Of a DNA stretch of 23,107 bases, positions 4,034 to 22,100 are shown piece by piece. The stretch comes from a virus. The notes beneath the pieces were generated by a model. It was not told the origin of the DNA, searched no databases, and saw only the letters and a program-made list of their open reading frames with translations. The stretch is from UHGV virus genome UHGV-1970859; one strand, 5' to 3'. The translations under genes and the position numbers were made by a program. The stretch's first letter is position 1; each line of letters begins with the position of its first letter.

Positions 4034-4484
4034 CCCACGTCACATCCTGGAATACATGCGACCAGTCGCCTTCGGAAGATGGCAGGCGTGGTTTTGGCTC
4101 CGGCAGGTGTTCTGCCTGCGGTGTGCCCTGACTGCTGCGCGTGATGCGAACGCGTTCCCGCAGGGGGAGCGTAAACAGGAGATCGGCGCTGTCATCGTCA
4201 TTGATAACGGCGGAGAATTTGATGTCCTGATTACGCTCAGGGTTGAGCAACAACTGTGGCTGATTTTCGGATAACCACGCCAGCAGCGGCAGCGTGAGGT
4301 CGTCCAGCTCCCCGGCGTAATCCATGACAAACATCACCATCTGATAGCGGTAAACAAACGATGGGGTTTCTCCTGTCGTTTCAATGTTGCCGCTCTCCAC
4401 GAAAATGGTGAATTTTTCCGGGTTGGCCTGACACCATCGGCATGAACGGGTCATGGCTTCACGCAGGGAATCAGTTTTCAGCAT
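4017..4484 (-). CDS. R: Tail completion protein gpR
   Basis: 155 aa. MLKTDSLREAM...LPLLAWLSENQP resembles P2 gpR (MLKPDSLRRAL...VLAWLRENQP), same length. Confidence 0.85.
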   Translation of the reverse strand: MLKTDSLREAMTRSCRWCQANPEKFTIFVESGNIETTGETPSFVYRYQMVMFVMDYAGELDDLTLPLLAWLSENQPQLLLNPERNQDIKFSAVINDDDSADLLFTLPLRERVRITRSSQGTPQAEHLPEPKPRLPSSEGDWSHVFQDVTWGESDG

Positions 4485-7382: not shown

Positions 7383-8435
7383 TTAGCTGTCGGCGAACTT
7401 CAGGCCAGTGACCATCGCGCACTTGCCATAGTCTTCAACGACATAAGCGTCATTGATGGACTGGTAGGTGGCAATGCGGTTGTATTCCGGCTCGTCTTTC
7501 ATCAGGCGACGCATTGAACCTTTCTGCCAGTAAATCGACAGGTTGTTGAACGAGGTGATCAGCATCGTTGCATCCGGGAAGAACGGCGCAAGGAACACGC
7601 CCAGCCCGCCAATGGTGCGCGATGACAGGATGAGCTGCCCGGCAAGTAATTCCGCATTGGGATTCTGGCCGCTGATGCTGTTCAGCACGGGCAGACGCAG
7701 CGAGTTAAACAGGTTGCGCCCCATAATCACCACAAGGTCGTCAGCTTCCTTGTGCCATTCATCCAGCAGGGATGAACGCGCGTCCTGTACCAGTGCATCA
7801 GCGTTCGCATACTTACCCGCGTGCGCCACGGTGTTGTCCATGTTGCGGGAGGTCAGCGTCACGTCATTCATAACGCGTTCGCTGGCGTCGGTTCTGATGT
7901 GCTCCAGCCATCCCACGTTAACGTCCTGAAGCAGCTTGTTGGTGCTGAAGTTGGACTCATCCGCGTGAGACGTGCCGTTGAAACCAATCATGATGCGGTC
8001 AAGCGCCACCTGTCGGGCAATCTGTGCGCTGATGCGGGACTGAAAATCAGAATGTGCCGCCCAGGCATCAAGCTGCGGATATGAAATAAACGTGTCGTAG
8101 TTCACCTGTTCGCACTGGTATTTGCGGTTTTTCAGATCAACCACGTTATTCGGGTTACGGCGTTTTGTGCCGTCATAACTGGTATTCGTGCGTGCAATTG
8201 GCCCGGTGGTGTCCGGGAGGATTTTTTCGCCTTTCTGGTCGGTCACGCCGATCACGTTAATTCTTTTCGTAAATTCGGTGCTTTCCTTTGAGGCGTTTTC
8301 AAAACGCTGCTGCACCGAGGGTTCCACGGTAAATCGCGATACCAGTGCGGAAACCGGAATATTATTAAGCGACGCCTGCTGCGCCATATAGCAACCCAGC
8401 TTGTTGCGGGTAATATCTGACATCACCAGATTCAT
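7383..8435 (-). CDS. N: Major capsid protein gpN
   Basis: 350 aa. FTVEPSVQQ, IMIGFNGTS, DLVVIMGRNL and ATMLITSFNNLSIYW resemble P2 gpN. AAGGAG Shine-Dalgarno upstream of the ATG. Confidence 0.95.
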   Translation of the reverse strand: MNLVMSDITRNKLGCYMAQQASLNNIPVSALVSRFTVEPSVQQRFENASKESTEFTKRINVIGVTDQKGEKILPDTTGPIARTNTSYDGTKRRNPNNVVDLKNRKYQCEQVNYDTFISYPQLDAWAAHSDFQSRISAQIARQVALDRIMIGFNGTSHADESNFSTNKLLQDVNVGWLEHIRTDASERVMNDVTLTSRNMDNTVAHAGKYANADALVQDARSSLLDEWHKEADDLVVIMGRNLFNSLRLPVLNSISGQNPNAELLAGQLILSSRTIGGLGVFLAPFFPDATMLITSFNNLSIYWQKGSMRRLMKDEPEYNRIATYQSINDAYVVEDYGKCAMVTGLKFADS

Positions 8436-8458
8436 AAAAAATTTGCTCCTTTGTCTTA

Positions 8459-9295
8459 TCAGAAGTCAGCCAACTGGTCGGAGGCTGCACCTGTTGCGGT
8501 GAACCGGTTCTGCGGATCGCCGTCCTGCGTGCGCAGTTTTTCCTTCAGTGCTGCCAGCTCTGTGGTCAGTGACGTAATTTTCTGGCTGTCCTGCTGATGG
8601 CGGGTTTCCAGCACATTAAAACGGTCGATAATGTCGGCCTGTGACGTTGCGACGCCTTCCACCGCTTCCTGAATACGGGAAAAACTGGCGTCATCCGCTT
8701 TGCGGCCACGGCCAATAATCCCCATTACGCGGTTAAACCACTGGGTGCCTTCTTCCTGGCGTTGTTCTGCCATTTCGATGATTTCAGACTCGATGGCTTC
8801 GGAGATAAGCGGCGCTTCACCCTGGATACTGTTGAACGTCATCACCGCCTGACGTTGCTGTGCCGTGAATTTCAGGCGCTCAGTGCCCAGGCTTGCCGGG
8901 GTGTCGGTCATCGCCAGCCCGACCAGATAGGCGCGCCCGTTAACGGAGAACTGCGGGTGCAGTTCGATACTGGAATAGATTTTCTTGCCGTCCGCGACAA
9001 GCTGCTTCATGCGCTCGGTCGGTTCGATTTCTGCATACAGCGCAGTACGTCCGGCCAGCGGACCTTCCGTAATGTCTTCCGTACTCAGTGCGGTGACATC
9101 GCCCATTGCGGAAAATTCGCTTGACGGGCATGGCGAGAGATAGTGCTCAACGTTCACGCGGGCAGCGTAAACATCCGGGTTGAAGTTCTCGGCGGCTTCA
9201 CGCAGATGCACCGGACTGATTTCACGTCCATCAACAGTTGATCCGGAGACAGCCACGCGAAACTTTTTGCGGGATGTCTTTTTTTCATTAGCCAT
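8459..9295 (-). CDS. O: Capsid scaffolding protein gpO
   Basis: Track ORF 8459..9328. Likely start is MANEKKTSRKKFRVAVSG at 9295 (P2 gpO begins MAKKVSKFFRIGVEG). LVGLAMTDTPASLGTE is conserved. Coiled-coil C-terminal half. Confidence 0.9.
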   Translation of the reverse strand: MANEKKTSRKKFRVAVSGSTVDGREISPVHLREAAENFNPDVYAARVNVEHYLSPCPSSEFSAMGDVTALSTEDITEGPLAGRTALYAEIEPTERMKQLVADGKKIYSSIELHPQFSVNGRAYLVGLAMTDTPASLGTERLKFTAQQRQAVMTFNSIQGEAPLISEAIESEIIEMAEQRQEEGTQWFNRVMGIIGRGRKADDASFSRIQEAVEGVATSQADIIDRFNVLETRHQQDSQKITSLTTELAALKEKLRTQDGDPQNRFTATGAASDQLADF

Positions 9296-9449
9296 AGTTT
9301 TTGCCCCTCTGACTGGTTCTTCAGTCATGATGGCAAAGCGTAACAGGCTGATACAAAGGGCTTTTGTTGTAAGAAAACGGCCAGAACAGGGGGTTAAGGA
9401 GAACAGTTTCGCGCGCGGGTAATCTTCCTGTAATTACTCAGGGGGAGCA
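9296..9449. promoter_or_regulatory. Divergent late-promoter region between O (minus) and P (plus)
   Basis: In P2 this intergenic region holds the Ogr-activated late promoters for the O and P operons. Assigned by position only; no clean TGT-N12-ACA activator dyad was identified by eye. Confidence 0.3.
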
Positions 9450-11201
9450 ATGATTCAGGACGCTTTTGTGCGCCAGCGTGCGCGGCAACTTTACTGGCAG
9501 GGTTATCCGCCCGCAGAAATATCACGTCTGATGGGAATAAACCCGAACACGATTTATGCGTGGAAAAAACGTGACCAGTGGGATGAAACGCCACCCGTGC
9601 AGCGTGTCACGCAGTCCATCGATGCGCGCCTCATCCAGCTTACTGAAAAACAGAATAAAACAGGCGGTGACTTTAAGGAAATAGACCTGCTGACCCGGCA
9701 GCTTAAAAAACTGCATGATGGCCAGCCGGATGCGACGGTCACAGGAAAGAAAGGCCGGGCGAAAAAACTCAAAAATCATTTCACGCCGGAACAGATTGCC
9801 GCACTGCGGGAAAAAATCATCAGCAGGCTGGAGTGGCATCAGCGGGGCTGGTTTGACTCCCTGACCCTTTGCAGGGAAGCCGGGATACGTAACAGGATGA
9901 TCCTGAAATCCCGACAGATTGGGGCAACCTGGTATTTTGCACAGGAAGCGCTGCTGATGGCGCTGCGTGACGATGTGGCGCAACCTTACCAGCGTAACCA
10001 GATTTTTTTGTCTGCGTCACGTCGTCAGGCGTTCCAGTTTAAAAGCATTATTCAGAAGGCCGCGGCTGAAGTTGATGTGGAGCTGAAAGGGGGCGATAAA
10101 ATCATCCTCTCCAACGGCGCAGAGCTGCATTTTCTCGGCACTTCTGCTGCGTCGGCACAGTCCTATACGGGCAATTTTTATTTTGATGAATTTTTCTGGG
10201 TCAGTCGCTTTGCTGAACTGCGCAAGGTGGCTGGCGCTATGGCAACCCTCAGCGGACTGCGGCGCACCTACTTCTCCACGCCATCCACCGAAACGCACGA
10301 GGCATACGCCTACTGGAACGGTGACCGCTGGAACGAGAAAAAGGCCTCGCATAAACGCCAGCGTTTTTCTGTGGACTGGAAAACGCTGCATAACGGGCTT
10401 ATCTGCCCTGACCGGACGTGGCGGCAAATTGTCACGCTGGAAGATGTGGTTAATCACGGCTGGAAACACACCGATATCGACGAAATTCGTGATGAAAACA
10501 CCGAAGACGAGTTCCTCAATCTCTATATGTGTGAATTTGTCCGCGAAGGGGAATCGGCATTTAACCTGAATATCCTGATTGGCTGCGGTGTTGACGGATA
10601 CGACGACTGGAAAGACTGGAAACCTTTTGCTCCCCGCCCGATGGGGAATCGTCCGGTATGGATTGGGTATGACGCAAACGGCAGCAGTGGAAACGGCGAC
10701 AGCGGCGCTGTGTCCGTGGTGGTTCCTCCGGCTGTTCCTGGTGGCCGTTTTCGAACGGTGGAGACGCGACGCGTTCAGGGGCTGGAGTTTGAAGAACAGG
10801 CCAGAGTCATTGAAGAGTTCACGTATCGCTACAACGTGGAACACATCGGCATTGATGTGACGGGCGGGAACGGGGAGGCTGTTTATCAGATAGTGAAACG
10901 GTTTTTCCCTGCTGCTATTCCGTACACCTTCACGCTGTCATCAAAACGGTCGCTGGTACTGAAAATGCTGCAAATAATGCGTGCCGGGCGGTGGGAATAC
11001 GATCGCGCCGAACGCGAGCTGGTCGCGGCCTTTAACGCCGTGCGTAAGGTGAAAACACCGGGCGGCTTTATCACTTACGAAACGGACCGCGCGAGGGGGA
11101 TCAGCCACGGCGACCTTGCGTGGGCAACCATGCTTGCTGTCATTAACGAACCGATTGGCGGCGAAGGAGAAAACGAGCGTTTCACGGTTATGGAGTTCTG
11201 A
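9450..11201 (+). CDS. P: Terminase large (ATPase) subunit gpP
   Basis: 583 aa. N-terminal RARQLYWQGYPPAEISRLMGINPNTIYAWKKRDQWDE and overall size match P2 gpP. Divergent from O as in P2. Confidence 0.95.
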   Translation: MIQDAFVRQRARQLYWQGYPPAEISRLMGINPNTIYAWKKRDQWDETPPVQRVTQSIDARLIQLTEKQNKTGGDFKEIDLLTRQLKKLHDGQPDATVTGKKGRAKKLKNHFTPEQIAALREKIISRLEWHQRGWFDSLTLCREAGIRNRMILKSRQIGATWYFAQEALLMALRDDVAQPYQRNQIFLSASRRQAFQFKSIIQKAAAEVDVELKGGDKIILSNGAELHFLGTSAASAQSYTGNFYFDEFFWVSRFAELRKVAGAMATLSGLRRTYFSTPSTETHEAYAYWNGDRWNEKKASHKRQRFSVDWKTLHNGLICPDRTWRQIVTLEDVVNHGWKHTDIDEIRDENTEDEFLNLYMCEFVREGESAFNLNILIGCGVDGYDDWKDWKPFAPRPMGNRPVWIGYDANGSSGNGDSGAVSVVVPPAVPGGRFRTVETRRVQGLEFEEQARVIEEFTYRYNVEHIGIDVTGGNGEAVYQIVKRFFPAAIPYTFTLSSKRSLVLKMLQIMRAGRWEYDRAERELVAAFNAVRKVKTPGGFITYETDRARGISHGDLAWATMLAVINEPIGGEGENERFTVMEF

Positions 11202-12247
11202 TGAGCAGAAAAAATAAAAAAGTGCGCATGAGTTCACGCATTGATCTCGCTGATGCGCTCAGGAAAGAATCATCGCTCAGTGCATTCACATTTGATGGTC
11301 CTTATCGCCTGACCGGGCATGACCTGCTGGACAATATGTACTGTGCTGATAACGGGCGGTGGTATGAAACCCCGGTGGACTGGTACGGTCTGGCAAGAGC
11401 TGCCCGGCAAACGTCCTGGCATCAGTCTGCGCTTTACTTTAAGCGCAATGTATTGCTCGGCTGCTATATTCCGCACCCGCTGCTTTCCCGGCAGGATTTC
11501 TCGGCGCTGGCGCTGGACTGGTTTGTGTTCGGTAACGCATTCCTTGAGCTTCGAAGCAATATGCTCGGCGAACCGCTTAAATTACGGCACGCCCTGGCGA
11601 AATACATGCGACGCGGAAGCGATCTTGAATCATGGTGGTATGTGCAGGATGGCAAGGACGCGTTCCAGTTTCGCCCTGGCAAAGTGTGCCACCTGATGAA
11701 TCCGGATATTAACCAGGAAATCTACGGCATGCCGGAATATCTTGGCGCATTACTCTCGGCCAGCCTGTCTCATTCGGCGGACATGTTCAGAAAACTGTAT
11801 TACGACAACGGATCCCACGCCGGGTGCATCATCTACATCGGTGCAGCGCAGGTAAACCGCGAAAGCATGGACTCCCTGAAAGAAACGCTACAGGGTGCAC
11901 GTGGTGGTGGTGCGTTTAAAAACGTGCTCATTCATGCGCCCAACGGGGGCAAAGAGGGGGTGCAAATTTTGCCGTTCCAGCAGATCACCGCAAAGGATGA
12001 GTTCATGAATGTTAAGGTGGCATCCCGTGATGATGTGCTGGCTGCGCACCGCGTTCCGCCGCAACTGATGGGGGCGATGCCGGGCGAAAAAAGTGCGTTT
12101 GGTGATGTGGAGAAGGCCGCGCGGGTTTACGCAATTAACGAGCTGATGCCCGTCATGGAGGCCATGAAGCACATCAATGACTGGCTTGGCGAAGAGGTGA
12201 TCCGCTTTAACCCTTACGCGCTGCTGGACACCCAGCCCACATCCTGA
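11201..12247 (+). CDS. Q: Portal protein gpQ
   Basis: 348 aa, start overlaps the P stop (TGATG). Size and position match P2 gpQ. Confidence 0.9.
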   Translation: MSRKNKKVRMSSRIDLADALRKESSLSAFTFDGPYRLTGHDLLDNMYCADNGRWYETPVDWYGLARAARQTSWHQSALYFKRNVLLGCYIPHPLLSRQDFSALALDWFVFGNAFLELRSNMLGEPLKLRHALAKYMRRGSDLESWWYVQDGKDAFQFRPGKVCHLMNPDINQEIYGMPEYLGALLSASLSHSADMFRKLYYDNGSHAGCIIYIGAAQVNRESMDSLKETLQGARGGGAFKNVLIHAPNGGKEGVQILPFQQITAKDEFMNVKVASRDDVLAAHRVPPQLMGAMPGEKSAFGDVEKAARVYAINELMPVMEAMKHINDWLGEEVIRFNPYALLDTQPTS

Positions 12248-12274
12248 CGCGCTTCGCTTGTCTGCTGCTTCGCC

Positions 12275-12297
12275 GGGGCATAAAAAATTTATGCCCC
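12275..12297. repeat. Perfect hairpin GGGGCATAAA-AAA-TTTATGCCCC just downstream of Q
   Basis: 10-bp perfect inverted repeat with a 3-nt loop, 28 bp after the Q stop. No flanking T tract, so not a classical intrinsic terminator. Lies in the region where P2 has its cos/packaging sequences. Confidence 0.4.
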
Positions 12298-12723
12298 GAC
12301 TCTCCAGCTCTTGTATCAATCAGATAATTTCACGACGCTTTCCTGCTTATTGCCATCATCGACAGTCAGACTCTTACGCAATCCCACCGCGTTGACTGCA
12401 TGTTCTCGCCGTCTCAGTGCGATTTTGACGGCCTTACCTTTCACCCCATCAAATCAAAAGCCCTCACGTCTTTTTCACGCTCAGCGTGAGAAAGACAGCC
12501 ATTCTGTTCTATCTCTGCGACATCGTTCAGGGAATGCTATTTACCCCCTGAAACGCGGGCTGTTCCCCCGTCACCTGCGCGCAGAAAAAACGCGTTTTTT
12601 TGTGCACGCACGGATCCTTGGCGGATCCAGCCACCACGCGGGCCGGAAGGGCAAAAAGTCGTTCAAAAAAATTGTGCAAATTTGTGCACAATCTTGCATT
12701 AAAATCAACGTTCAGTGGATGTA

Positions 12724-12752
12724 TTTAAGCGAAAAAAAGATCTTTGTATAAT
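12724..12752 (+). promoter_or_regulatory. Candidate sigma70 promoter for the toxin-antitoxin operon
   Basis: TATAAT at about 12747-12752 with TG immediately upstream and a weak -35 (TTTAAG) 17 bp away, about 30 bp upstream of the toxin start. Three TTGTGCA repeats lie upstream at about 12598, 12672 and 12682. Confidence 0.3.
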
Positions 12753-12783
12753 TTCGTTCGGTTACGTTGGTGAGAGGTTCTGA

Positions 12784-13185
12784 GTGAAAGACATCACATA
12801 TTGGAATGATAAAATTCAGAAACAAATTGATAGTTATCCTGAAGCCGTTCGAGAAAGGATAAATTTTGAGCTTGTTGCACTGCAGAGCGATTGTCCTCAT
12901 TCTTTCGACAGTTTCGATTTTCCAGTGGATGGTGATGATGCCTTGGGGGTTCCACCGGCTCAAAAAAAATCAATGCGGGAAACGATTGGTCGCTACGCAA
13001 TGCAATTAACCATCAAGAGTAGTGATTCTTATCGTATGATTTACGTTGCGAAATTTGCGGAGTCTGTTTACATACTTCATACATTTAAGAAAAAGACAAA
13101 TGGTGTGTCAAAAAAAGAATATGAGACAGCTGCCGCAAGATACAAACAATTAGTGGAGTATCGTCGTAAAAATGGCTTAAGATAG
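12784..13185 (+). CDS. Type II toxin, RelE/HigB superfamily (Gp49-like, DUF891-type)
   Basis: 133 aa, GTG start with GAGAGG upstream. C-terminal YRMIYVAKFAESVYILHTFKKKTNGVSKKEYETAAARYKQL is characteristic of Gp49-like toxins. Followed by an XRE-HTH gene (toxin-first order as in HigBA). AT-rich relative to flanking phage genes. Confidence 0.6.
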   Translation: MKDITYWNDKIQKQIDSYPEAVRERINFELVALQSDCPHSFDSFDFPVDGDDALGVPPAQKKSMRETIGRYAMQLTIKSSDSYRMIYVAKFAESVYILHTFKKKTNGVSKKEYETAAARYKQLVEYRRKNGLR

Positions 13186-13255
13186 CTTGCAGGTATCTCA
13201 AATCTGATATAACATAATCAATGTCAGCAACATCGCTGATTAAGGCTGGAGAGTT

Positions 13256-13573
13256 ATGGAATTCGTCGTAGTTAAAAACCCTTATGCGTCATCAAGTAGC
13301 TCTGTAAATGAAGCTAGTGATAAACACATCCGGGCCCAATTAATGGTTATTATCCGAAAAATGATTCAGGAGCGCGGTCTTACCCAGCGAGAAGCTGCTG
13401 AATTGCTGGAAACAACCCAACCAAGAGTAAGCGAAATCATTAATGGTAAGTTAGATAATCATACCATTGATCGACTGTTTATCATGCTAAACATCCTGGG
13501 GTGGGATTTTAAGTTTGGGTATTCCGGTGGGGTTGTTACTGCGACGGCAGAACATTCCTGTCAGGTTGCATAA
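13256..13573 (+). CDS. Antitoxin, HTH XRE family (HigA-like)
   Basis: 105 aa. LTQREAAELLETTQPRVSEIINGKLDNHTIDRLFIMLNILG is an HTH pattern typical of antitoxins paired with Gp49-like toxins. GGAG Shine-Dalgarno. Confidence 0.6.
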   Translation: MEFVVVKNPYASSSSSVNEASDKHIRAQLMVIIRKMIQERGLTQREAAELLETTQPRVSEIINGKLDNHTIDRLFIMLNILGWDFKFGYSGGVVTATAEHSCQVA

Positions 13574-13580
13574 ATATTAA

Positions 13581-13613
13581 GCCCCTGACGGGGCCAACCG
13601 TCAGGGGCTTTTC
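13581..13613 (+). terminator. Rho-independent terminator after the antitoxin gene
   Basis: GCCCCTGACGG-GGCCAA-CCGTCAGGGGC, an 11-bp perfect GC-rich stem followed by TTTTC, 8 bp after the stop codon. Confidence 0.7.
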
Positions 13614-13738
13614 AACACAAAGAAATGATAGTCTGAGAAATATCATCACCTTGATGTTTTGCATGTACAACTGTGATTCTAGTCAATCCAGGCAGATAAT
13701 CAAGGTAAAAATCATTCTCAGTAAGGAGGTGATTATGG

Positions 13739-13888
13739 ATGGCTTTGAAATCAATTGTAAAAAAACCGGCTCCGAAAGGATTTCGTTGGCAGTTTTGCCG
13801 ATACCGTAAGGTTCGTGGTGATTCTGGTCGAAAGCTGGATGCTCATGAGTATGGCTGGAAAGCTTGGGCGTTTCTAGTGCGAAGCTGA
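13739..13888 (+). CDS. Small basic hypothetical protein (49 aa)
   Basis: Below the ORF-track size cutoff. Strong AGGAGG Shine-Dalgarno at 13724-13729. Own translation: MALKSIVKKPAPKGFRWQFCRYRKVRGDSGRKLDAHEYGWKAWAFLVRS. Has its own terminator hairpin 13 nt downstream. An alternative 24-aa frame starts at 13735. Confidence 0.35.
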   Translation: MALKSIVKKPAPKGFRWQFCRYRKVRGDSGRKLDAHEYGWKAWAFLVRS

Positions 13889-13901
13889 TATTTGATATTT
13901 A

Positions 13902-13925
13902 AAAGCATGGCGAAAGCCATGCTTT
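13902..13925. terminator. Bidirectional intrinsic terminator between the small ORF (plus) and parR (minus)
   Basis: AGCATGGC-GAAA-GCCATGCT, an 8-bp stem with a GNRA-type loop, T-rich on both sides. A second hairpin ATTCAGG-N8-CCTGAAT at about 13934-13955 is followed by TTCTTTTTTA. Confidence 0.55.
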
Positions 13926-13931
13926 TTGTGA

Positions 13932-14246
13932 TCATTCAGGAAAAAATTCCTGAATATTCTTTTTTATTTGACTTATATTCTGATTTTTGCAACCAACAGG
14001 CTCGCTGTTATGCCAGCCCCATATGTGATTGTTGGCAGGCATATTTTCCCCCTCTGACCATTCAGCCAGCCAGTAAGCAAAGGCAGGATCGTTTTTAATG
14101 AGTGCCAGTCCAGCCAGAAATGCCGCGCGTTGCGCGCGGCTGCGTTCGGAGGCTGGCAGGCTGTCGAGATAATTACACGCTTCCCGTTCACTCTTGACTG
14201 CAGCTGGCTTCAGATAGAAACTTATCCGTCTGGTTGGTGTCGTCAT
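13932..14246 (-). CDS. parR: ParR-like RHH centromere-binding adaptor
   Basis: Track ORF 13932..14381. Likely start is MTTPTRRISFYLKPAAV at 14246, with an AAGGAG Shine-Dalgarno inside the parM 3' end. N-terminal RRISFYLKP...YLDSLPASERSRAQRAAFLAGLALIKNDP resembles R1 ParR (RRTIAFKLNP...TLDSIPQGERSRLNRAALTAGLALYRQDP) as recalled from memory. Confidence 0.6.
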   Translation of the reverse strand: MTTPTRRISFYLKPAAVKSEREACNYLDSLPASERSRAQRAAFLAGLALIKNDPAFAYWLAEWSEGENMPANNHIWGWHNSEPVGCKNQNISQIKKNIQEFFPE

Positions 14247-14250
14247 TGGT

Positions 14251-15210
14251 TTACTCCTTGTCCATTGCGTACAGCCCATTAACCAGAGCAAACTGTGGCA
14301 CCCCGTCCGCGATGAAAGTCGCATTAACTCCGCAGGCTTCGCGGATAGCGGGGGCCACAATCTCCGCCCCGCCACCGACAACCATCACCCGCCCGTAACC
14401 CGAAAAACCCGCCAGCGCGCGGATCACGCGTTGTTTCAGTGTTTCTTCCTTTTCACGAATAACCGCCATCAGGCTGGCGTAATGCGCGTCATTGTGGATG
14501 TGCTGGCGCAGCCAGGCTTCATCATGGCGATGTTCGATAATGGTATTGGCGATGTGGTGACTGGTACGCATACCGTTAGTGGCCATCACCGACAGTACGG
14601 CATCGGCCATCAGGGAAACGCCTACGTGTGGATCGCAAAACACCTGGCTGATACCTACCAGTTGTCCCTGAACCTTTGCCACATCCAGCGTGGTTCCGCC
14701 TAAATCCACAATCAGCAGGGATTCAAACGGACTCATGTCAGCCAGTGCTTTAAAACCAGCCGGAATGGATTCAGGCATAACCCGTACGTTACGGATAGTG
14801 AATGCTTTTCCGTTCTGGTACGCCACCGGGCGCATGACGTTTGCTTTTTTGCGGTTGATGTTGGCCATGTCCGGCTGTGCGTTTGTGTCGAAATATTCGC
14901 TCAGTGGCAGGGTGACAACCACATCCACTTCCTGTGGTGTGATGCCTGATTTGACCAGCGCGTGATGAATGGCAATGACATTCACATCGCTGTACTGGTA
15001 TTGCGTGTCGGTCGTCTGGACAAAGCGATCGCTGACCGGATCAAAACCATAGCGCACGCCATCAAGCATGTAGTTTGCGGGCTGCGTGCCACCGAACGGC
15101 GCAGACCATTCCGACTTGAAGCTGTTCGGGCTGATGGCGTTGCGGCGTTCGCCGTTCTCAGTCCATGCCAGCTTGATGTTGGTGGAGCCGTCATCGATAC
15201 AAATTTTCAT
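14251..15210 (-). CDS. parM: ParM/StbA-family actin-like segregation ATPase
   Basis: 319 aa. MKICIDDGSTNIKLAW, ISPNSFKSEW, YSDVNVIAIHHAL, VMPESIPAG, LLIVDLGGTTLD, FSGYGRVMVVGGGAE and LVNGLYAM match the R1 ParM motifs (phosphate 1, adenosine and phosphate 2 elements of the actin fold), as recalled from memory. Confidence 0.85.
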   Translation of the reverse strand: MKICIDDGSTNIKLAWTENGERRNAISPNSFKSEWSAPFGGTQPANYMLDGVRYGFDPVSDRFVQTTDTQYQYSDVNVIAIHHALVKSGITPQEVDVVVTLPLSEYFDTNAQPDMANINRKKANVMRPVAYQNGKAFTIRNVRVMPESIPAGFKALADMSPFESLLIVDLGGTTLDVAKVQGQLVGISQVFCDPHVGVSLMADAVLSVMATNGMRTSHHIANTIIEHRHDEAWLRQHIHNDAHYASLMAVIREKEETLKQRVIRALAGFSGYGRVMVVGGGAEIVAPAIREACGVNATFIADGVPQFALVNGLYAMDKE

Positions 15211-15240
15211 GTCGCTTTTCCTTATGTTGATTAATTAATC

Positions 15241-15278
15241 GTTTACGGGATTCTGAAATCCCGTTTTTGCCTGTTTTA
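15241..15278. repeat. Repeat unit 1 containing the 20-bp palindrome ACGGGATT-CTGA-AATCCCGT (about 15245-15264)
   Basis: Lies in the 76-bp gap between the A stop and the parM start, so within the parM promoter/leader region. Confidence 0.5.
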
Positions 15279-15286
15279 TGCGCGCT

Positions 15287-18154
15287 TCATATATCGCGGC
15301 GCGTTTTTTGCTCATTTACGGGATTTGTGAATCCCGTTTCTGTCTGTTTTTTGTTTCCACTGGTCAGGCCACCCCGCAGCAGGTCTGCTTTGCGGCGGGC
15401 GCGTTCAGTGGTTTCACTGATTCTCTGTGCGTGCTCTGCGTCGCGGATGGCGCGCAGCATGTCAGAAAGCACGGTAACGGGTGTTTTCATGGTGTTCTGG
15501 TCTTGCTGAAGTGTGGATGCCAGGCGTGCGGCGGCTTCGGGGTCTGATGCCCCCAGCTGTTCCAGATAGCTGGCGACCGGGTTATGGCGGATCTCCGTGC
15601 TGCTTACGCCGTGGTTACGGCTCAGGCGCTGCCAGAGCTGCGTGATCCGGCTGTCCGGTCTGGTATCCGGTTTGCGTACAATTTCAAATCCCTGCGGTGC
15701 AATGATGCTGCCGTCAACGTACAGACTGCCGCCCCGTAACAGGTGCTGCATCTGTTGTTCACCGATATGCAGGCCGAGAGATTCAGCAGACTCCCGCCAT
15801 TCTTTAGCGAGTAATTCGTGGTTATCAGGCAAAGGCCGCTGCTGTTTGCGGCTCTGTGTCCAGCTCTGCATTTCATCACTGCTGTTTTTTGCCTGTTTGT
15901 CACGAAGCGAACGCATCAGCGCCCGGCGTTCGTGCCGTTTCAGTGAGCGCATCCATTCGTTCACTTCAACGCCGTCAGGGAGCTGCGGCCACGGTGCTGG
16001 CCGTTCTTCCGGCTGTTCTGTCCCGTTGTTGTCCGTTTCCTGTACACGGGGACAGTTATTGCCACGAGTCCAAGGGGCGGCAGGGCCGCCCTGAAGGTCA
16101 AAACCATTTTCGCGGGCGCTGTCTTCCGCTTCCGGTTTGCGTCTTACCAGCTTCCAGTTATCCGGATGCGTGCATACGCGGGAAGACTCCCCAATGAGCG
16201 GCGACCAGATCCCGTAAATCTGTACACTCTGCTCGCCGTAATCGTTCAGCTCATCTGCGAGGTCGTAGGCTGTGCGAATCAGGTAGTCCTTGCGCGGAAC
16301 AAGTACGCCACCCTGTTTTTCAATGTAGGTGGCAAAACATCCGGCATCAGCGGCAGCGAGTACCGCATCCATTGCGTCATCCTTCAGCCGTTGCGGGCCT
16401 TCCGGGTTGCGTGCCATCTGGCTGGCAAGGCGGCGGAGTTCACGCCACACCTGACGGGAGGGGATGCCAAAGAACTGGAACTGGCGGACCCGGTGAAGGC
16501 GCGCCCAGCCGATGGCACGCTCCACGCTCTCGGCCATTGATTTACCTGTTTCGTGGTCAACGCGTGGCTTGCCCGTTTTCGGGTCGATGCCATCCACGGC
16601 ACGGCTGTCCAGGTTTTTCCCGATGTAGGTGGCGATGTAGCTGGTCGGTGTGCCTTTTGAGCCGTCGACGTACTCTGCCTTAAAGCGTGGGGTAATATCA
16701 TCACCCAGCTCGTGACGATCTTCCTGAATGGCAATATCGCGGGTGTGGGACACAATGGTGTCGATTTCTTCCGGATGAGCAAAGACCATCATATGCCAGT
16801 GCACGGTGCCGTCATGGTGAGGCTCCACCGTGCGGATGCCATACCAGCGCAGGCCGTCGCGGTTCAGTTTCTTGCGGACTGCCGCAAAAAACGTGTTAAC
16901 CAGGTAATCGCTGGAGTCGCGCATGGTGGCCCCGTTCCATTTGGGATTCTGATGACCGTTCTCTGTTGTGGCGTGGTATTTTGACGGGCAGGTGACAGTC
17001 AGAAACACCGCTTTGTCGCCACGGGCTTCGGCCAGAAGTTCCAGTCCCTTCATGGTGGCCATCATTTCTGCCTTACGGTGAACCGGGTTACTTACTCCCG
17101 CGTAATACACTGTCTCGAGATCAATCGTGAACCCGTCTTCATTTTCCAGCATGAAACTTTTCAGGAAATCGCGTGTTTTCTCGCGCTGTGCGCGAAACTC
17201 GCTTAACGCGTCCTGGCTCAGATAAGGCGATGTTTTTCTGGAAACCAGACAGGCGGCGCGGAGTTGTTCTTCTCTCCACTCGCAACGTAACAGCCACAGT
17301 TTGCGTTTCCACCATTCCGCACAGGTCAGGCGAAGGATTGCACCCGGCAGCAGCTCTGTGTCCGGTTCGTTCCTCCGGTCTTTGTCTGTTGTCAGTACGT
17401 CATAATGCGGAGGCATGGCGTGCAGGTGTAACGCCATGCGGGCCAGCATCTGATACGCCTTCAGGGTTACATCCATGGTCAGCTCGCCATCGGTCGCGCC
17501 AAAGCCATCGCAGAGTTTTTCGAAGGTGCTGCTGAACATCGCCGCCGTCATGGTGGCCAGCGTCTGTATCTGGTGTTTGTTGAGCTGCGGCAGGTAAAGC
17601 AAATCGTCCAGGCGCTCGCGTCCGGCAAGGGAGCGATAACCCGGTGTCAGCCAGCGTCCGTCAGTGCGATCCAGACGTTCGAATATTTTGCGCAGGGTTC
17701 CGCGTGCATAGCGTTCCGCCTGCCAGTTCTTTTTGCCTTTCTGACGATCGGCTTCCTGCTTCTTGCGCAGAAAAGAGAGGTGGCGGCTCAGAGGTTCACG
17801 CAGATAAACGGGAAGCACCTTCAGTGTGGCAAAAGCACGGGCCACCGGGTCTTGTTCTGTTGCCTGACGCTTGCTGATGATGCTTTGTGTCAGCTTTTCA
17901 CGCTGTCCGGCTTCCTCAAGGGATGCCATGAGTTTTTTACCCACGGTGGATTGTGCGAAAAAGGCTTCCTCCTTCGCTTCCTGTTCTTCCAGGGCCTTTT
18001 TGTCTGCTTCAAGGTAGTAACGGATGGCGCGTTGCAGGTCGGTTTCAGTTTCCTGCCTGCGCTCCGTAAATCTGGCCGGATCAATGGCTGGCCGTGGTTC
18101 ATTCCAGCTCCATGCAAACTCACTCATGGCTGGTATCCCGTCACGTGCTGCCAC
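15287..18154 (-). CDS. A: Replication initiation protein gpA (HUH rolling-circle endonuclease)
   Basis: 955-aa ORF. [21 protein letters not shown] (HUH motif) and [13 protein letters not shown] (paired catalytic tyrosines) resemble P2 gpA ([35 protein letters not shown]). Track start is GTG at 18154; an ATG at 18127 is coupled (ATGA) to the upstream gene stop and may be the true start. Confidence 0.9.
   Translation of the reverse strand: [955 protein letters not shown]
15313..15351. repeat. Repeat unit 2 containing the palindrome ACGGGATT-TGTG-AATCCCGT (about 15318-15337)
   Basis: Near-identical to unit 1 including flanks (TTTACGGGATT...AATCCCGTTT.TG.CTGTTTT), 73 bp away. Lies within the last codons of A. 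Confidence 0.5.
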
Positions 18155-20652: not shown

Positions 20653-21057
20653 ATGAAAAATGATATTGGTCAGCGGTTGCGTGAGGAAAGGGAAAGATTG
20701 GGACTTAGTCAAGTTGCTATGAGCGACATTGGTGGAGTCAAAAAGCTAACTCAGCTTAGATATGAGAAAGGAGATAGCTTTCCTGATGCTGCGTATTTGG
20801 CAGCGCTGTCTCGTTTTGGCCTTGATGTTCAGTATGTTGTGTTGGGAATTCACTCACCTGAAACTTATAACGATGATGAGCAGGAGCTGATTACTCGCTT
20901 TCGAGCAGCTTCGTTAGATGTGAAAAACGCCGTGATCGGGGCTTTAAAAGGTGCGATCAGTGAAAAGGAAACTCAGCCATCAGGACGTGAGTTAAATATT
21001 TCTGGTGGTAATAACCGTATCGCTGGTCGTGACTATAACGAAACTAAGGGTAGGTGA
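20653..21057 (+). CDS. Immunity repressor (C-like), XRE-family HTH
   Basis: 134 aa. N-terminal GQRLREERERLGLSQVAMSDIGGVKKLTQLRYEKGDSFPDAAYLAALSRFGLDV is a classic XRE HTH. Divergent from the early operon and on the same strand as int, as for P2 C / 186 cI. Confidence 0.7.
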   Translation: MKNDIGQRLREERERLGLSQVAMSDIGGVKKLTQLRYEKGDSFPDAAYLAALSRFGLDVQYVVLGIHSPETYNDDEQELITRFRAASLDVKNAVIGALKGAISEKETQPSGRELNISGGNNRIAGRDYNETKGR

Positions 21058-21072: not shown

Positions 21073-21723
21073 ATGGCCGTCAACTCAAACGGTTCAAACA
21101 ATCGCGTTGCTGGACGTGATTTTCACGAAAAGAATATTCAGATAGCGCGATATGATGGTTCTCATACCGTCAATATCGCAATCCCTTCGAATAATGATGA
21201 TGACGATCGCCCTTTGCTTAAGGCTCAGCGTAAGGAGCTAAATAGCTTGGTTGCTGCTATTGCAGAAGCTAGCAATACTGAAGCGTTTATTATTTGGCAA
21301 AAAGTACATGCGGAGATTGGTGTAGCTGGTATTGATGATATGACAGTAAATCAATATAAAACAGCGGAGAGTTTTCTGCATGCAATGCTTGAGCGATGTA
21401 AAGATCATGATGCCTGTAAGACTCTTGTAAGTTTATTACTACGTAACAGTGAAGACTGTGGACTTCGACAAAAACTTCTGCGGTATTGCCATATCAATTT
21501 CGGTACAGGACGTTTAAACGATCTTACTCGTTCTCAGTTACAGTCTGCATTGTCGTGGTTAGAGCAACAATCGGTATCAAGCCATACAGAGAATTCGACC
21601 TTACCAGAAGTCCGACTTCGTGCTTCAGAATTAATCCGACTTTATCCAAAAGAAATAATATTCTTTATCTGCGTAGGGGTTTTGGTAGGCGGTGCCATTT
21701 CTAGGGTGTTTTTTAATTTGTAA
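21073..21723 (+). CDS. Hypothetical tail-anchored membrane protein (216 aa) in the lysogenic operon
   Basis: GGGAGGTG Shine-Dalgarno. Low-complexity N-terminus (NNDDDD), helical central region, C-terminal TM segment IIFFICVGVLVGGAISRVFF. Its N-terminus repeats a motif from the repressor C-terminus. Confidence 0.5.
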   Translation: MAVNSNGSNNRVAGRDFHEKNIQIARYDGSHTVNIAIPSNNDDDDRPLLKAQRKELNSLVAAIAEASNTEAFIIWQKVHAEIGVAGIDDMTVNQYKTAESFLHAMLERCKDHDACKTLVSLLLRNSEDCGLRQKLLRYCHINFGTGRLNDLTRSQLQSALSWLEQQSVSSHTENSTLPEVRLRASELIRLYPKEIIFFICVGVLVGGAISRVFFNL

Positions 21724-21752
21724 TCTTACTTGAGCTAAATTGAGGTAATGAT

Positions 21753-22100
21753 ATGAAAGTAAAAAAGGTTCAACTATTAGTTACTTTTTTATCTATGTTT
21801 TCTTTTTCCGCCGTCGCAATGCCTTTTAAAAATATTGAACGTGAGAGTTTCAATGGGGTATGGCCATTTAATACTGATGAGGTTCAATTACAGTGTCTTG
21901 ATGGTAATCCTTATGTGATGAATTTTGACGATAATAAGTTATATGCGCTTACAGGTTTGGCTCGAATAAAAGGTAAAACATTTGGTGCGTTACCGTTAGA
22001 TAACAATAATCCATTTTGGCTAGATAATGATGCCGCCCCAGGGTTAAAAAAGAGTCTGGGGGATGTCACTAAGGCTGCATTTGATTTATGTGATAAGTAA
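21753..22100 (+). CDS. Secreted YebY-like (DUF2511) protein
   Basis: 115 aa with signal peptide (MKVKKVQLLVTFLSMFSFSAVA). NGVWPFNTDEVQLQC...PYVMNF and C-terminal AAFDLC resemble E. coli YebY (AWPFTREEVMLTC...LYVINP...LC) as recalled from memory. AT-rich. Confidence 0.55.
   Translation: MKVKKVQLLVTFLSMFSFSAVAMPFKNIERESFNGVWPFNTDEVQLQCLDGNPYVMNFDDNKLYALTGLARIKGKTFGALPLDNNNPFWLDNDAAPGLKKSLGDVTKAAFDLCDK

What the first reader, a model, noticed from the sequence alone, without database searches (positions are those of the whole stretch)
12248..15286. Accessory locus at the P2 old/tin position carries a toxin-antitoxin pair, an orphan small ORF and a parMR cassette
In P2 the interval between portal gene Q (via cos) and replication gene A holds the non-essential anti-phage genes old and tin, and in P2-like prophages this interval is a described hotspot for swapping defence systems. 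Here the same 3-kb interval contains none of those. It has a Gp49/HigB-like toxin with an XRE antitoxin under its own promoter and terminator, a 49-aa basic ORF with its own Shine-Dalgarno and terminator, and a convergently oriented parM-parR cassette. The toxin-antitoxin and small-ORF part is AT-rich compared with the flanking phage genes, consistent with horizontal acquisition. The combination is a candidate defence or maintenance island whose function is not evident from sequence.
Basis: partly seen in the sequence, partly recalled or inferred. Interest (0 to 1): 0.75.

Follow-up and report, generated by a model that had tools for sequence, protein, structure and literature searches.

The report
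Prophage cargo slot beside conserved ParMR
The region is the known variable cargo slot of a P88-like (P2-family) E. coli prophage: the partition genes belong to the phage backbone, and the real cargo is a rare toxin-antitoxin pair coupled to a small, previously unannotated protein gene that has a conserved leader RNA structure and a predicted antisense RNA.

Summary

The interpretation needs three corrections.

1. **parM-parR is not swapped-in cargo.** It is conserved at 93-97% identity in P88-like (Xuanwuvirus) phages. About 53 of 60 evenly sampled E. coli hits, out of 1,440 matching records, carry it. Rousset et al. 2022 already noted this partition system in the P2 Q-A hotspot.

2. **The variable slot is narrower.** It runs from about 12,700 to 13,930-14,175, and the right recombination junction lies inside parR. 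This cargo is in only 2 of 5,426 complete E. coli genomes. Sister prophages carry other cargo such as DUF4760, Ea22-like, YafO or Doc/Phd genes.

3. **The 49-aa ORF is not an orphan.** It belongs to a widespread small-protein family under strong purifying selection (dN/dS about 0.07), with 65 clusters at 50% identity.
   - The gene always follows a two-gene module containing an XRE regulator. Here and in Serratia, Pantoea and others that module is Gp49-HTH_37. In 75 of 88 other loci it is an XRE plus ImmA/IrrE pair resembling CapH/CapP.
   - It has a covarying leader RNA structure.
   - It also has a conserved antisense promoter (33 of 35 sequences).

No known defence system matches any of these genes. 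Function is inferred, not shown.

The parts
12248..12710 (.). Conserved cos-proximal backbone DNA downstream of the portal gene. It includes the portal terminator hairpin (12274-12298). The left cargo junction falls at about 12689-12710.
   Evidence: Identity is 94-97% to P88, Shae_phiSM and the ST131 prophage up to 12689-12710. The hairpin is repeat I8. The P2 cos 19-mer itself was not found, so the exact cos position is not defined here.
12747..12752 (+). Candidate -10 box (TATAAT) of the toxin-antitoxin promoter.
   Evidence: Read directly from the sequence. A -10-like hexamer sits at the same aligned position in 9 related cassettes, while the sequence further upstream is unrelated.
12784..13185 (+). 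Gp49/HigB-class (RelE superfamily) type II toxin, 133 aa, GTG start, with a short acidic insert.
   Evidence: PF05973 matches at E 3.2e-13, above the gathering score. Orthologues start with ATG at the same codon. A profile of the subfamily hits S. pneumoniae HigB 6af3 at E 0.038.
13256..13573 (+). XRE-type (HTH_37) antitoxin, 105 aa.
   Evidence: HTH_37 matches at 7.7e-19 and PDB 2a6c at 2.8e-11. It always follows the toxin in orthologous cassettes.
13579..13610 (.). 13-bp GC-rich hairpin. It is a weak or leaky terminator for the TA operon on the + strand, and the predicted terminator of the antisense RNA on the - strand.
   Evidence: The hairpin travels with the small-gene module in both the TA and the XRE-ImmA contexts. 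The U-tract is more consistent on the - strand (read).
13624..13738 (+). Structured 5' leader of the small gene. H1 is the hairpin 13624-13630/13641-13647. In H2 the H1 loop (13633-13638) pairs with 13716-13721, next to the Shine-Dalgarno sequence. H3 is 13648-13655/13699-13706. The SD is at 13723-13729. An out-of-frame ATG lies at 13735.
   Evidence: The covariation score is 0.40 against 0.21 shuffled (0 of 500 shuffles) and 0.09-0.13 when slid. All 7 H1 pairs and all 6 H2 pairs show changes on both sides. In H1, G-U pairs outnumber A-C pairs 16 to 1 on the + strand. The upstream ATG is present in 65 of 94 loci.
13568..13703 (-). Predicted antisense promoter (-35 TTGATT 13703..13698, -10 TAGAAT 13681..13676) and a roughly 100-nt antisense RNA running to the 13610..13579 hairpin.
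   Evidence: One search lists the site. Across 35 diverse homologous leaders, -35 TTGnnn is present in 35, a 16-18 nt spacer in 35 and -10 TAnnnT in 33. The predicted RNA folds with z -5.35 here and -4.83 in L005. Transcription was not shown.
13739..13888 (+). 49-aa basic protein (net charge about +10), a member of an unannotated prophage small-protein family (phrog_33859).
   Evidence: phrog_33859 matches at E 4.8e-24. The family has 65 clusters at 50% identity and 90 loci. Median dN/dS is 0.07. The AF2 model has pLDDT 87.8 and is a small beta fold with no structural match.
13901..13926 (.). Bidirectional terminator between the small gene and the convergent parR.
   Evidence: It is an 11-bp perfect inverted repeat flanked by A and T runs.
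13932..14246 (-). parR (StbB-type ribbon-helix-helix adaptor), 104 aa. It is mosaic, and the right cargo junction lies inside it at 14051-14176.
   Evidence: PF10784 matches at 2.2e-25 and pB171 ParR 2jd3 at E 0.0035. The N-terminal 23 residues and the C-terminal FPE are conserved while the middle is 53-74% identical.
14251..15210 (-). parM, actin-like partition ATPase, 319 aa.
   Evidence: Pfam StbA_N and ParM_N match. R1 ParM 1mwk matches full length at E 4e-92. The gene is 96-97% identical in P88-like phages. The nearest true plasmid ParM is 53% identical.
15239..15353 (.). Putative parC and parM promoter region. It holds two 42-nt direct repeats, each with the palindrome ACGGGATT-N4-AATCCCGT (15245-15264 and 15318-15337). 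The second lies inside the 3' end of gene A.
   Evidence: There are exactly 2 matches in the window against 0.12 expected. ParR binding was not tested.

Best explanation
The interval is the cos-proximal Q-to-A region of an integrative P88-like (Xuanwuvirus, P2-family) prophage. It is a mosaic of three layers.

**1. Phage backbone.** This comprises cos-side DNA (12248 to about 12700) and a lineage-conserved type II partition locus.
- The partition locus is parC, parM and parR (13932 to about 15353).
- By homology to R1 ParMRC, ParR should bind two palindromic sites upstream of parM and couple them to ParM filaments.
- It would then segregate the excised or replicating circular phage genome. This is inferred.

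**2. Imported toxin-antitoxin operon.**
- The operon sits in an AT-rich cassette of about 1.2 kb (about 12710-13930) and has its own -10 box.
- It encodes a toxin-first type II TA: a Gp49/HigB-class RelE-superfamily toxin and an HTH_37 XRE antitoxin.
- By family precedent, the antitoxin neutralises the toxin and autorepresses the operon. The toxin is most likely an mRNA interferase released when the antitoxin is lost.
- That would give addiction and possibly abortive infection. Both are inferred.

**3. Coupled small-gene module.**
- Directly downstream, and co-inherited with the TA, lies a module of about 355 bp encoding a conserved 49-aa basic beta protein.
- Its mRNA most likely arises by read-through of the weak hairpin after the antitoxin.
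- The leader is structured, and a conserved antisense promoter inside it would hold basal expression down.
- The small protein would therefore be made only when the XRE-controlled operon is derepressed.
- Its biochemical activity is unknown.
For: **Backbone versus cargo**
- parMR and the cos side are 93-97% identical in P88, Shae_phiSM and most of 1,440 E. coli records. The middle aligns in only 2 of 5,426 genomes.
- Sister prophages carry DUF4760, Ea22-like, ClpX-ZnF/DUF4014, DUF3800, XF1762, YafO, Doc/Phd or nothing at the slot.

**ParMR**
- ParM matches R1 ParM at E 4e-92 and ParR matches PF10784.
- The palindromic repeats are shown.
- An integrase lies at 22106-23107.

**Toxin-antitoxin**
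- Pfam hits are above threshold.
- Gene order is toxin first, as in all studied Gp49-type modules.
- The position of the -10 box is conserved.

**Small gene**
- It is under purifying selection, with dN/dS 0.07.
- It matches phrog_33859.
- It sits directly after Gp49-HTH_37 in Serratia, Pantoea, a second P2-like phage (inverted, abutting the portal gene) and metagenomic contigs, in four different insertion contexts.
- The three proteins co-diverge at 64-86% identity.
- In 75 of 88 further loci it follows an XRE plus Peptidase_M78 pair, at a constant 140-170 nt gap.
- Leader covariation is shown.
- The strand asymmetry of wobble pairs shows that the + strand RNA includes H1, which leaves no room for a promoter of its own.
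- The antisense promoter is conserved in 33 of 35 sequences.
Against: - Nothing was tested experimentally. Toxicity, neutralisation, the antisense transcript, read-through and ParR-parC binding are all inferred.
- In this window the hairpin after the antitoxin is followed by UUUU, so read-through may be inefficient here.
- Related Gp49-HTH_37 pairs in Enterobacter lambdoid prophages, Photorhabdus and a Rep3 plasmid lack the 49-aa family. The TA therefore does not need it.
- The small gene's commonest partner is a different module, XRE-ImmA. The linkage could reflect shared regulatory logic, or a shared preference for operon ends in prophage hotspots, rather than a joint mechanism.
- No PADLOC defence model matches.
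- parC has only two palindromes, unlike the ten iterons of R1.
Confidence: 0.7

Rival explanations
1. The whole 3-kb interval, parM-parR included, is one horizontally acquired accessory island for defence or maintenance, occupying the old/tin slot.
For: All the genes lie between Q/cos and A. Partition genes and a TA are both maintenance functions. Rousset et al. counted the partition system among the contents of the Q-A hotspot.
Against: parMR has backbone GC (0.52-0.56) and is 96-97% identical across P88-like phages that carry entirely different cargo. Only 12.7-13.9/14.18 kb is swapped. The nearest plasmid ParM is 53% identical, so there was no recent import.
Confidence: 0.07
2. The small gene, its leader and the antisense RNA form an autonomous selfish type I toxin-antitoxin-like module. 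It merely hitch-hikes next to XRE-containing operons and has no functional tie to the Gp49-HTH_37 pair.
For: - The architecture resembles type I loci: a protein under 60 aa, a structured leader, a strong SD, an out-of-frame upstream ATG, and a cis-antisense promoter with its own terminator hairpin.
- The hairpin-to-terminator unit of about 355 bp is the block shared between the TA and ImmA contexts.
- The module swaps partners.
Against: - The protein is basic and hydrophilic, not a membrane peptide.
- No conserved sense promoter fits between the hairpin and H1, although H1 is selected on the sense RNA.
- The gene is next to an XRE-containing pair in at least 78 of 88 loci, while those partners diverge to 20-40% identity. 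That is hard to explain by chance hitch-hiking.
Confidence: 0.25
3. The TA plus the small protein form a tripartite anti-phage abortive-infection system. Infection or DNA damage removes the XRE protein, which frees the HigB-like toxin and induces the small effector.
For: - The position is a validated defence hotspot.
- One homologous cassette is adjacent to AbiTii (L011).
- The alternative partners resemble CapH/CapP, which are damage-responsive regulators of defence operons (capH 4e-10, capP down to 4e-19).
- A tripartite HigBA system, TAC, provides a precedent.
Against: No component matches a defence model in PADLOC beyond weak generic HTH hits. Gp49-type TAs that have been characterised stabilise replicons (Dziewit 2007, cited). 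The small protein's fold has no match.
Confidence: 0.25
4. The 49-aa frame is a chance ORF, and the conserved element is only RNA or a terminator.
For: PGAP does not annotate it in the near-identical E. coli prophage. Only 5 protein clusters were called in the 5.8-billion-protein set.
Against: - dN/dS is 0.07 over 310 pairs with saturated dS.
- The reading frame and length are kept from Enterobacterales to Pseudomonas, Xanthomonas, Acinetobacter and beyond.
- AF2 gives pLDDT 87.8 with a 60-sequence alignment.
Confidence: 0.02

Closest known systems
P2 Q-A (old/tin) hotspot of P2-like prophages (Rousset et al. 2022, PMC9122126)
   Same: The position is the same, between portal/cos and gpA. The gene content is variable, AT-rich and swapped. 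The paper already reports that about a quarter of P2-like phages carry a putative plasmid partition system there, and its Table S5A lists StbA + X + Plasmid_stab_B arrangements.
   Different: In P88-like phages the slot is narrower, running from cos to inside parR, with parMR as a fixed flank. This Gp49 + HTH_37 + small-gene cargo was not found in the stored parts of their tables. It is present in only 2 of 5,426 complete E. coli genomes.
Gp49-domain HigBA / Tad-Ata type II toxin-antitoxin modules (pAMI2 tad-ata, N15, SXT; A. baumannii HigBA; M. tuberculosis HigBA2/3)
   Same: The toxin has a Gp49 (PF05973) domain and is encoded first, followed by an XRE-HTH antitoxin on the same strand.
   Different: - This toxin subfamily has an acidic insert between the N-terminal helices and the core.
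- It has no sequence-detectable solved relative except a marginal HigB hit.
- It is followed by a conserved third gene.
- Its activity is untested.
R1 / pB171 ParMRC type II plasmid partition system
   Same: ParM matches R1 ParM at E 4e-92 over its full length. ParR has the StbB ribbon-helix-helix N-terminus and a conserved C-terminal tail. The order parC, parM, parR is the same.
   Different: - It is encoded by an integrative phage (integrase; 1,755 chromosomal places against 2 on plasmids).
- It is only 53% identical to plasmid ParMs.
- The putative parC is two 20-bp palindromes, one inside gene A, rather than ten 11-bp iterons.
- The middle of ParR is recombinationally mosaic.
CapH/CapP and ImmR/ImmA (XRE repressor plus M78 metallopeptidase) damage-responsive regulator pairs
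   Same: In 75 of 88 loci the small gene's upstream partners are an XRE HTH and a Peptidase_M78 protein that hit the PADLOC capH and capP models. The logic proposed here, an output gene derepressed when an XRE protein is removed, is the same as theirs.
   Different: The window itself has no M78 peptidase; a TA pair takes that place. CapH/CapP are usually divergent from a multi-gene defence operon, not followed by a single 49-aa gene with an antisense RNA.
Type I toxin-antitoxin loci with structured leaders and antisense RNAs (hok/sok, tisB/istR-1, symE/symR)
   Same: There is a protein under 60 aa, a conserved leader with long-range pairing, an antisense promoter within the leader and tight translational control. 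The comparison rests on general knowledge of these systems.
   Different: The protein is strongly basic and predicted all-beta, not a hydrophobic helix. There is no Rfam match. There is no independent sense promoter, and toxicity is unknown.
TAC (HigB1-HigA1-SecB-like chaperone) tripartite system of M. tuberculosis
   Same: A HigBA-type pair has a third gene immediately downstream (literature listed).
   Different: The third gene here is a 49-aa basic protein with no SecB similarity. It is separated from the antitoxin by a hairpin and a regulatory leader.

Membership tests
Type II TA, Gp49/HigB-XRE (Tad-Ata) class | The toxin carries a Gp49/RelE-superfamily domain. | tested here: met
   PF05973 matches at E 3.2e-13, 50 bits against a 23.9-bit cut-off. 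PGAP names the 99%-identical protein a RelE/ParE family toxin.
Type II TA, Gp49/HigB-XRE (Tad-Ata) class | The antitoxin is an XRE-type HTH protein adjacent on the same strand, with the toxin gene first. | tested here: met
   HTH_37 matches at 7.7e-19. There is a 70-nt gap and the toxin is upstream. The reverse order is typical of the class.
Type II TA, Gp49/HigB-XRE (Tad-Ata) class | The toxin inhibits growth (mRNA cleavage) and is neutralised by the antitoxin, and the operon is autoregulated. | not testable with these tools
   No experiment was possible. Only a conserved -10 box and a marginal HigB PDB hit at E 0.038 bear on this.
ParMRC type II partition system | An actin-fold ATPase ParM is present. 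| tested here: met
   StbA_N matches at 6.9e-82 and the ParM C-terminal domain at 3.1e-68. R1 ParM 1mwk matches at E 4.2e-92 over residues 2-316.
ParMRC type II partition system | A ribbon-helix-helix adaptor ParR is encoded directly downstream of parM. | tested here: met
   PF10784 matches at 2.2e-25. pB171 ParR 2jd3 matches at E 0.0035 over the N-terminal 55 residues. The gap to parM is 4 nt.
ParMRC type II partition system | A centromere parC of repeated ParR-binding sites overlaps the parM promoter. | tested here: inconclusive
   Two 42-nt direct repeats with 20-bp palindromes lie upstream of parM. These are far fewer sites than in R1, and binding was not tested.
ParMRC type II partition system | The system stabilises an extrachromosomal replicon. 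| not testable with these tools
   The only evidence is circumstantial. One complete P88-like genome is deposited as a 34,461-bp circular 'plasmid'. Nearly all copies are chromosomal.
P2-like Q-A defence/diversity hotspot | The locus lies between portal/cos and gpA, and its content differs between closely related phages. | tested here: met
   The variable part is about 12700 to 13930-14175.
P2-like Q-A defence/diversity hotspot | The cargo is a recognised anti-phage system. | tested here: not met
   PADLOC gives only NsnC at E 0.0026 and generic HTH hits (PDC-M64C at 5e-5). Nothing matches the small protein, ParM or ParR.
Type I toxin-antitoxin locus (for the small-gene module) | A cis- or trans-encoded antisense RNA is complementary to the toxin mRNA leader. 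| tested here: inconclusive
   The antisense promoter is conserved in 33 of 35 sequences, and the predicted two-hairpin RNA has z about -5. No expression data exist and there is no Rfam family.
Type I toxin-antitoxin locus (for the small-gene module) | A small, usually hydrophobic, toxic peptide is encoded. | tested here: not met
   The protein has 49 aa, but with 13 K/R against 3 D/E and a predicted beta-sheet fold. Toxicity is unknown.
CapH/CapP-type regulated module | An XRE repressor is paired with an M78 metallopeptidase. | tested here: not met
   No Peptidase_M78 gene is in the window. The feature is met only in homologous loci elsewhere.

The most novel reading that the evidence does not exclude
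The 49-aa gene, its covarying leader RNA and its antisense RNA form a previously undescribed and mostly unannotated prophage module. It is spread across Gamma-, Alpha- and other Proteobacteria and beyond. On this reading it serves as the dedicated output of XRE-type stress sensors, usually CapH/CapP-like XRE-ImmA pairs and here a HigB-type TA. The protein would be a new kind of non-membrane small toxin, an effector or an anti-repressor, made only when the XRE protein is destroyed during DNA damage or phage attack.
Probability: 0.3. Interest if true: 0.7.

Novelty: new variant of a known kind. Interest (0 to 1): 0.45.

Why it matters
The hotspot is known, the TA class is known, and the phage ParMR system has already been noted in the literature.

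Three things are new.

1. **A sharper map of the slot.** In P88-like phages, which are present in roughly a quarter of complete E. coli genomes, parMR is a fixed flank and recombination junctions fall inside parR.

2. **A small-protein family with its own RNA control layer.**
   - Gene callers mostly miss it.
   - It is under strong purifying selection.
   - It is persistently wired downstream of XRE-based sensor pairs, including CapH/CapP-like ones.
   - If it is their effector, it would give a compact, testable system for how prophages turn repressor destruction into a physiological output.

3. **An open question about ParMRC.** Why integrative P2-family phages keep an R1-like ParMRC is unresolved, and this locus could be used to test it.

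Tried and rejected
- **P2 cos.** The P2 cos 19-mer (recalled from memory) was searched in the window with 3 mismatches and gave no match. The cos position is left undefined.
- **Cargo in plasmids.** The search found no match.
- **PADLOC.** A scan of all five proteins and gpA gave no credible defence hit.
- **Rfam.** The gathering-threshold scan of the whole window gave nothing. The permissive scan of 13540-13950 gave only far sub-threshold hits, such as BTnc049 at 26.6 bits against 81.9 and ctRNA_pGA1 at 20 against 45. These were treated as chance.
- **AF2 on the small protein.** A 6-sequence alignment gave pLDDT 58 and was discarded. A 60-sequence alignment gave pLDDT 87.8.
- **Weak structural similarity.** Similarity to the phiC31 recombinase domain (TM 0.44, E about 4) was judged not significant.
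- **Profile-search artefacts.** P0037 (630 aa, 8 stretches) is a low-complexity false positive.
- **Literature search for the protein motif.** No paper contains it.
- **Sense promoter in the leader.** No conserved TAnnnT lies on the + strand, so the idea was rejected (read).
- **Chance ORF.** The idea that the 49-aa frame is not a gene was rejected on dN/dS 0.07.
- **Toxin against the PDB.** The single sequence gave no hit.

Full report
**What is at the coordinates**

The window is about two thirds of a P2-family prophage. These genes sit around the interval:
- capsid genes (7383-9328, minus strand)
- large terminase (9450-11201)
- portal (11201-12247)
- replication protein A (15287-18154, minus strand; Phage_GPA 2e-131)
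- a tyrosine integrase at the right edge (22106-23107)

- a Gp49/RelE-type toxin (12784-13185; PF05973 at 3e-13, above threshold)
- an HTH_37 XRE protein (13256-13573; 8e-19)
- a 49-aa basic ORF (13739-13888)
- parR (13932-14246, minus strand; PF10784 at 2e-25)
- parM (14251-15210, minus strand; both ParM domains, 7e-82 and 3e-68)

Perfect hairpins lie at 13579-13610 and 13901-13926. GC drops to 0.38-0.43 across 12600-14000, against 0.52-0.58 outside.

**Which phage, and what is backbone**

Megablast places the region in Escherichia phage P88 and its relatives (Xuanwuvirus, Peduoviridae).
- Every hit aligns to the cos-side 450 bp and to parR-parM, but not to the middle.
- P88 itself, an ST131 prophage and Citrobacter phage Shae_phiSM all have parM and parR directly after gene A. 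Between cos and parR they carry other genes: two hypotheticals in P88, a DUF4760 protein plus a hypothetical in the ST131 prophage, and a membrane protein in Shae_phiSM.
- Among 5,426 complete E. coli genomes, 1,439 have a match. In 60 evenly spaced rows, 53 contain parM-parR at 93-97% identity.
- The genes between cos and parR vary widely. They include DUF4760, XF1762, Ea22-like, ClpX zinc-finger plus DUF4014, DUF3800, YafO, Doc/Phd, or nothing.

Pairwise BLAST puts the breakpoints at 12689-12710 on the left. On the right they fall at 14176 against P88 and Shae_phiSM, and at 14051 against the ST131 prophage, which is inside parR. ParR is accordingly mosaic. Residues 1-23 and the C-terminal ..NI..FPE tail are conserved, while the middle is only 53-74% identical.

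The present cargo (12650-13950) is found in just two complete E. coli genomes, in no plasmid, and in no deposited phage.

The parMR cassette, however, is a fixed flank of the slot and not cargo. Rousset et al. 2022 had already described this hotspot. [quoted passage not shown]

**The partition system**

- ParM aligns over its full length with R1 ParM (1mwk, E 4e-92).
- ParR matches the ribbon-helix-helix N-terminus of pB171 ParR (2jd3, E 0.0035).
- Upstream of parM lie two 42-nt direct repeats, 73 nt apart. Each contains the palindrome ACGGGATT-N4-AATCCCGT. There are exactly two matches in the window, against 0.12 expected.
- One palindrome is in the 76-nt gap between A and parM.

I take these repeats as the parC/operator, but binding is untested. 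The arrangement also differs from the ten iterons of R1 (R1 detail from general knowledge).

The phage ParM is only 53% identical to the nearest of more than 5,000 plasmid ParMs. The six plasmid records at 95% or above include NZ_CP148288.1, a 34,461-bp circular record that is simply a whole P88-like genome with integrase. That single record is compatible with an episomal state but does not prove one. 1,755 of 1,757 places in E. coli are chromosomal.

**The toxin-antitoxin pair**

- Orthologues in Serratia, Pantoea, Enterobacter, Salmonella salamae, Photorhabdus and metagenomes (22 clusters) confirm the start codon. They also show an acidic insert of variable length.
- The gene order is toxin first. 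That is the rule for all studied Gp49-domain modules, namely Tad-Ata of pAMI2, N15 and SXT, and HigBA of A. baumannii and M. tuberculosis.
- A -10-like hexamer (TATAAT at 12747-12752) sits at the same aligned position in nine related cassettes whose upstream DNA is otherwise unrelated. The pair therefore brings its own promoter.
- A profile of the subfamily finds only S. pneumoniae HigB in the PDB, at E 0.038.
- The antitoxin matches 2a6c at 3e-11.
- PADLOC gives nothing beyond weak generic hits.

Membership in the Gp49/HigB-XRE type II class is met on domain content and organisation. Activity is untested.

**The small ORF is not an orphan**

It matches phrog_33859 at E 5e-24.

*Linkage to the TA pair*
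- Five protein clusters were found in the large protein set. Four of them sit directly after a Gp49 plus HTH_37 pair, on the same strand.
- Those four occur in four different contexts: beside a lambdoid-type integrase in Serratia, after P2-like tail-fibre genes in Pantoea, next to AbiTii, and abutting the portal gene of another P2-like phage with the cassette inverted.
- The fifth cluster (Arsenophonus), and an E. coli lambdoid phage, have the small gene after an XRE plus Peptidase_M78 (ImmA/IrrE) pair.
- The three proteins co-diverge. Toxin identity is 64-71%, antitoxin 67-76% and the small protein 73-86%.

*Wider distribution*
- Because gene callers miss it, I searched DNA directly. This gave 34 loci in species-representative genomes and 56 viral contigs.
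- The genomes include Enterobacterales, Vibrio, Pseudoalteromonas, Acinetobacter, Pseudomonas, Xanthomonas, Geobacteraceae, Alphaproteobacteria, Synergistaceae and Terriglobia.
- A profile search of 1.84 billion representatives finds 65 clusters. All are short proteins.
- The one long hit is low-complexity noise. One other hit is an ImmA N-terminus fused to the small protein.
- In 88 loci, the gene immediately upstream is Peptidase_M78 in 75 and HTH_37 in 3. The gene before that is an XRE HTH in 72 of 79 and Gp49 in 3. The gap to the small gene is a constant 140-170 nt.
- The XRE and M78 proteins hit the PADLOC capH and capP models (4e-10, and down to 4e-19).
- In 21 loci an integrase lies convergent within 300 nt.

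*Coding status and fold*
- Median dN/dS over 310 pairs is 0.07, so the frame is a real gene.
- With a 60-sequence alignment, AlphaFold gives a confident small beta fold (pLDDT 87.8).
- No paper in the library contains its motif.

**A regulatory layer around the small gene**

The DNA shared between the TA context and the ImmA context begins at the hairpin after the upstream gene. It ends at the terminator after the small ORF, a span of about 355 bp.

*Leader structure.* On 35 diverse leaders I tested three helices.
- H1 is the hairpin 13624-13630/13641-13647.
- H2 pairs the H1 loop (13633-13638) with 13716-13721, next to the Shine-Dalgarno sequence.
- H3 pairs 13648-13655 with 13699-13706.
- 80.8% of cells are paired, against 69.3% in shuffles. 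The covariation score is 0.40, against 0.21 shuffled (0 of 500 shuffles reach it) and 0.09-0.13 for slid controls.
- All 7 pairs of H1 and all 6 of H2 show changes on both sides.
- In H1 there are 16 G-U cells on the plus strand and one A-C cell. H1 is therefore selected in the sense RNA.

*Antisense promoter.* The same alignment shows a minus-strand sigma-70 promoter in register.
- -35 TTGnnn is present in 35 of 35 sequences.
- The spacer is 16-18 nt in 35 of 35.
- -10 TAnnnT is present in 33 of 35.
- In the window these are TTGATT and TAGAAT at 13703..13676.

*Predicted antisense RNA.* The predicted transcript is about 100 nt. It folds into two hairpins, with z -5.35 here and -4.83 in the lambdoid relative, where it ends in a canonical U-tract.

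*Upstream ATG.* An out-of-frame ATG lies 4 nt before the start codon in 65 of 94 loci.

*Rfam.* No family matches.

None of this shows expression. The covariation control is not a probability, because related sequences inflate it.

**How it most likely works**

*Shown.* The gene identities, the backbone-versus-cargo partition, the synteny and purifying selection of the small gene, the covarying leader and the conserved antisense promoter motif.

*Inferred.*
- The HTH_37 protein neutralises and autorepresses a HigB-like mRNA interferase. That would give addiction of the prophage and possibly abortive infection.
- Sense transcription of the small gene comes by read-through from the XRE-controlled operon, because H1 is in the sense RNA and there is no room for a promoter of its own.
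- The antisense RNA and the leader keep basal output low. The small protein would then appear only on derepression, in parallel with CapH/CapP logic in the commoner context.
- ParMRC segregates circular phage genomes.

*Caveats.*
- Related TA pairs in Enterobacter, Photorhabdus and a Rep3 plasmid lack this small gene. Two Enterobacter loci instead have a different Cys-rich 49-aa ORF at the same place.
- In this window the hairpin after the antitoxin has a UUUU tail.
- The activity of the small protein is unknown.

**Verdict**

The part that goes beyond the literature I could reach is the three-gene cassette. More broadly, it is the small-protein/antisense module wired to XRE-based sensors, which I rate as a new variant of known kinds and a moderate-interest lead.

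Noticed in passing
NZ_CP148288.1 (L119:1-34461): A record deposited as a 34,461-bp circular E. coli 'plasmid' is a complete P88-like phage genome. It carries an integrase, gpA, parM, parR and a Hok/Gef gene. It could be an episomal prophage or an excised or replicating form captured by the assembly.
   Followed up: partly
window 14051-14176 (inside parR): The right-hand homology breakpoints with sister phages fall inside parR, so the middle of ParR is mosaic (53-74% identity). Its first 23 residues and its C-terminal FPE tail stay fixed.
   Followed up: partly
window 15312-15353: The second copy of the parC-like repeat, with its palindrome at 15318-15337, lies within the last codons of replication gene A. 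The coding sequence therefore doubles as a probable ParR site.
   Followed up: partly
L109:~4000-4160 and L116:~3990-4140: In Enterobacter lambdoid prophages, related Gp49-HTH_37 pairs (73-76% identical toxin) lack the 49-aa family. About 190 nt after the antitoxin hairpin they carry a different Cys-rich 49-aa ORF (MISKTCEKCGNTCDVIFRYSICVNG...). This suggests the third position may hold interchangeable small genes.
   Followed up: no
window 13735-13737, and 65 of 94 homologous loci: A conserved out-of-frame ATG lies 4 nt upstream of the small ORF's start, at the better spacing from the Shine-Dalgarno sequence. The peptide it would encode is not conserved, so it may act as a translational decoy.
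   Followed up: partly
P0038 (128 aa, from the profile search): One protein joins the N-terminal part of an ImmA-like protein to the small-protein sequence. It may be a deletion or fusion variant, or a truncated contig.
   Followed up: no
window 12668-12698: Overlapping palindromes (TTGTGCA...TGCACAA, with tandem AAATTGTGC) sit in the conserved backbone just before the left cargo junction. They could be an operator, or a site related to cos or recombination.
   Followed up: no
window 21073-22100: Two genes lie between the HTH repressor-like gene (20653-21057) and the integrase. One encodes 216 aa with no Pfam hit, and the other 115 aa with a weak DUF2511 hit. This may be a second accessory slot of the prophage.
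   Followed up: no
L011:510-1430: One homologous Gp49-HTH_37-small cassette sits next to an AbiTii-domain gene, so it is in a defence-island-like neighbourhood.
   Followed up: no
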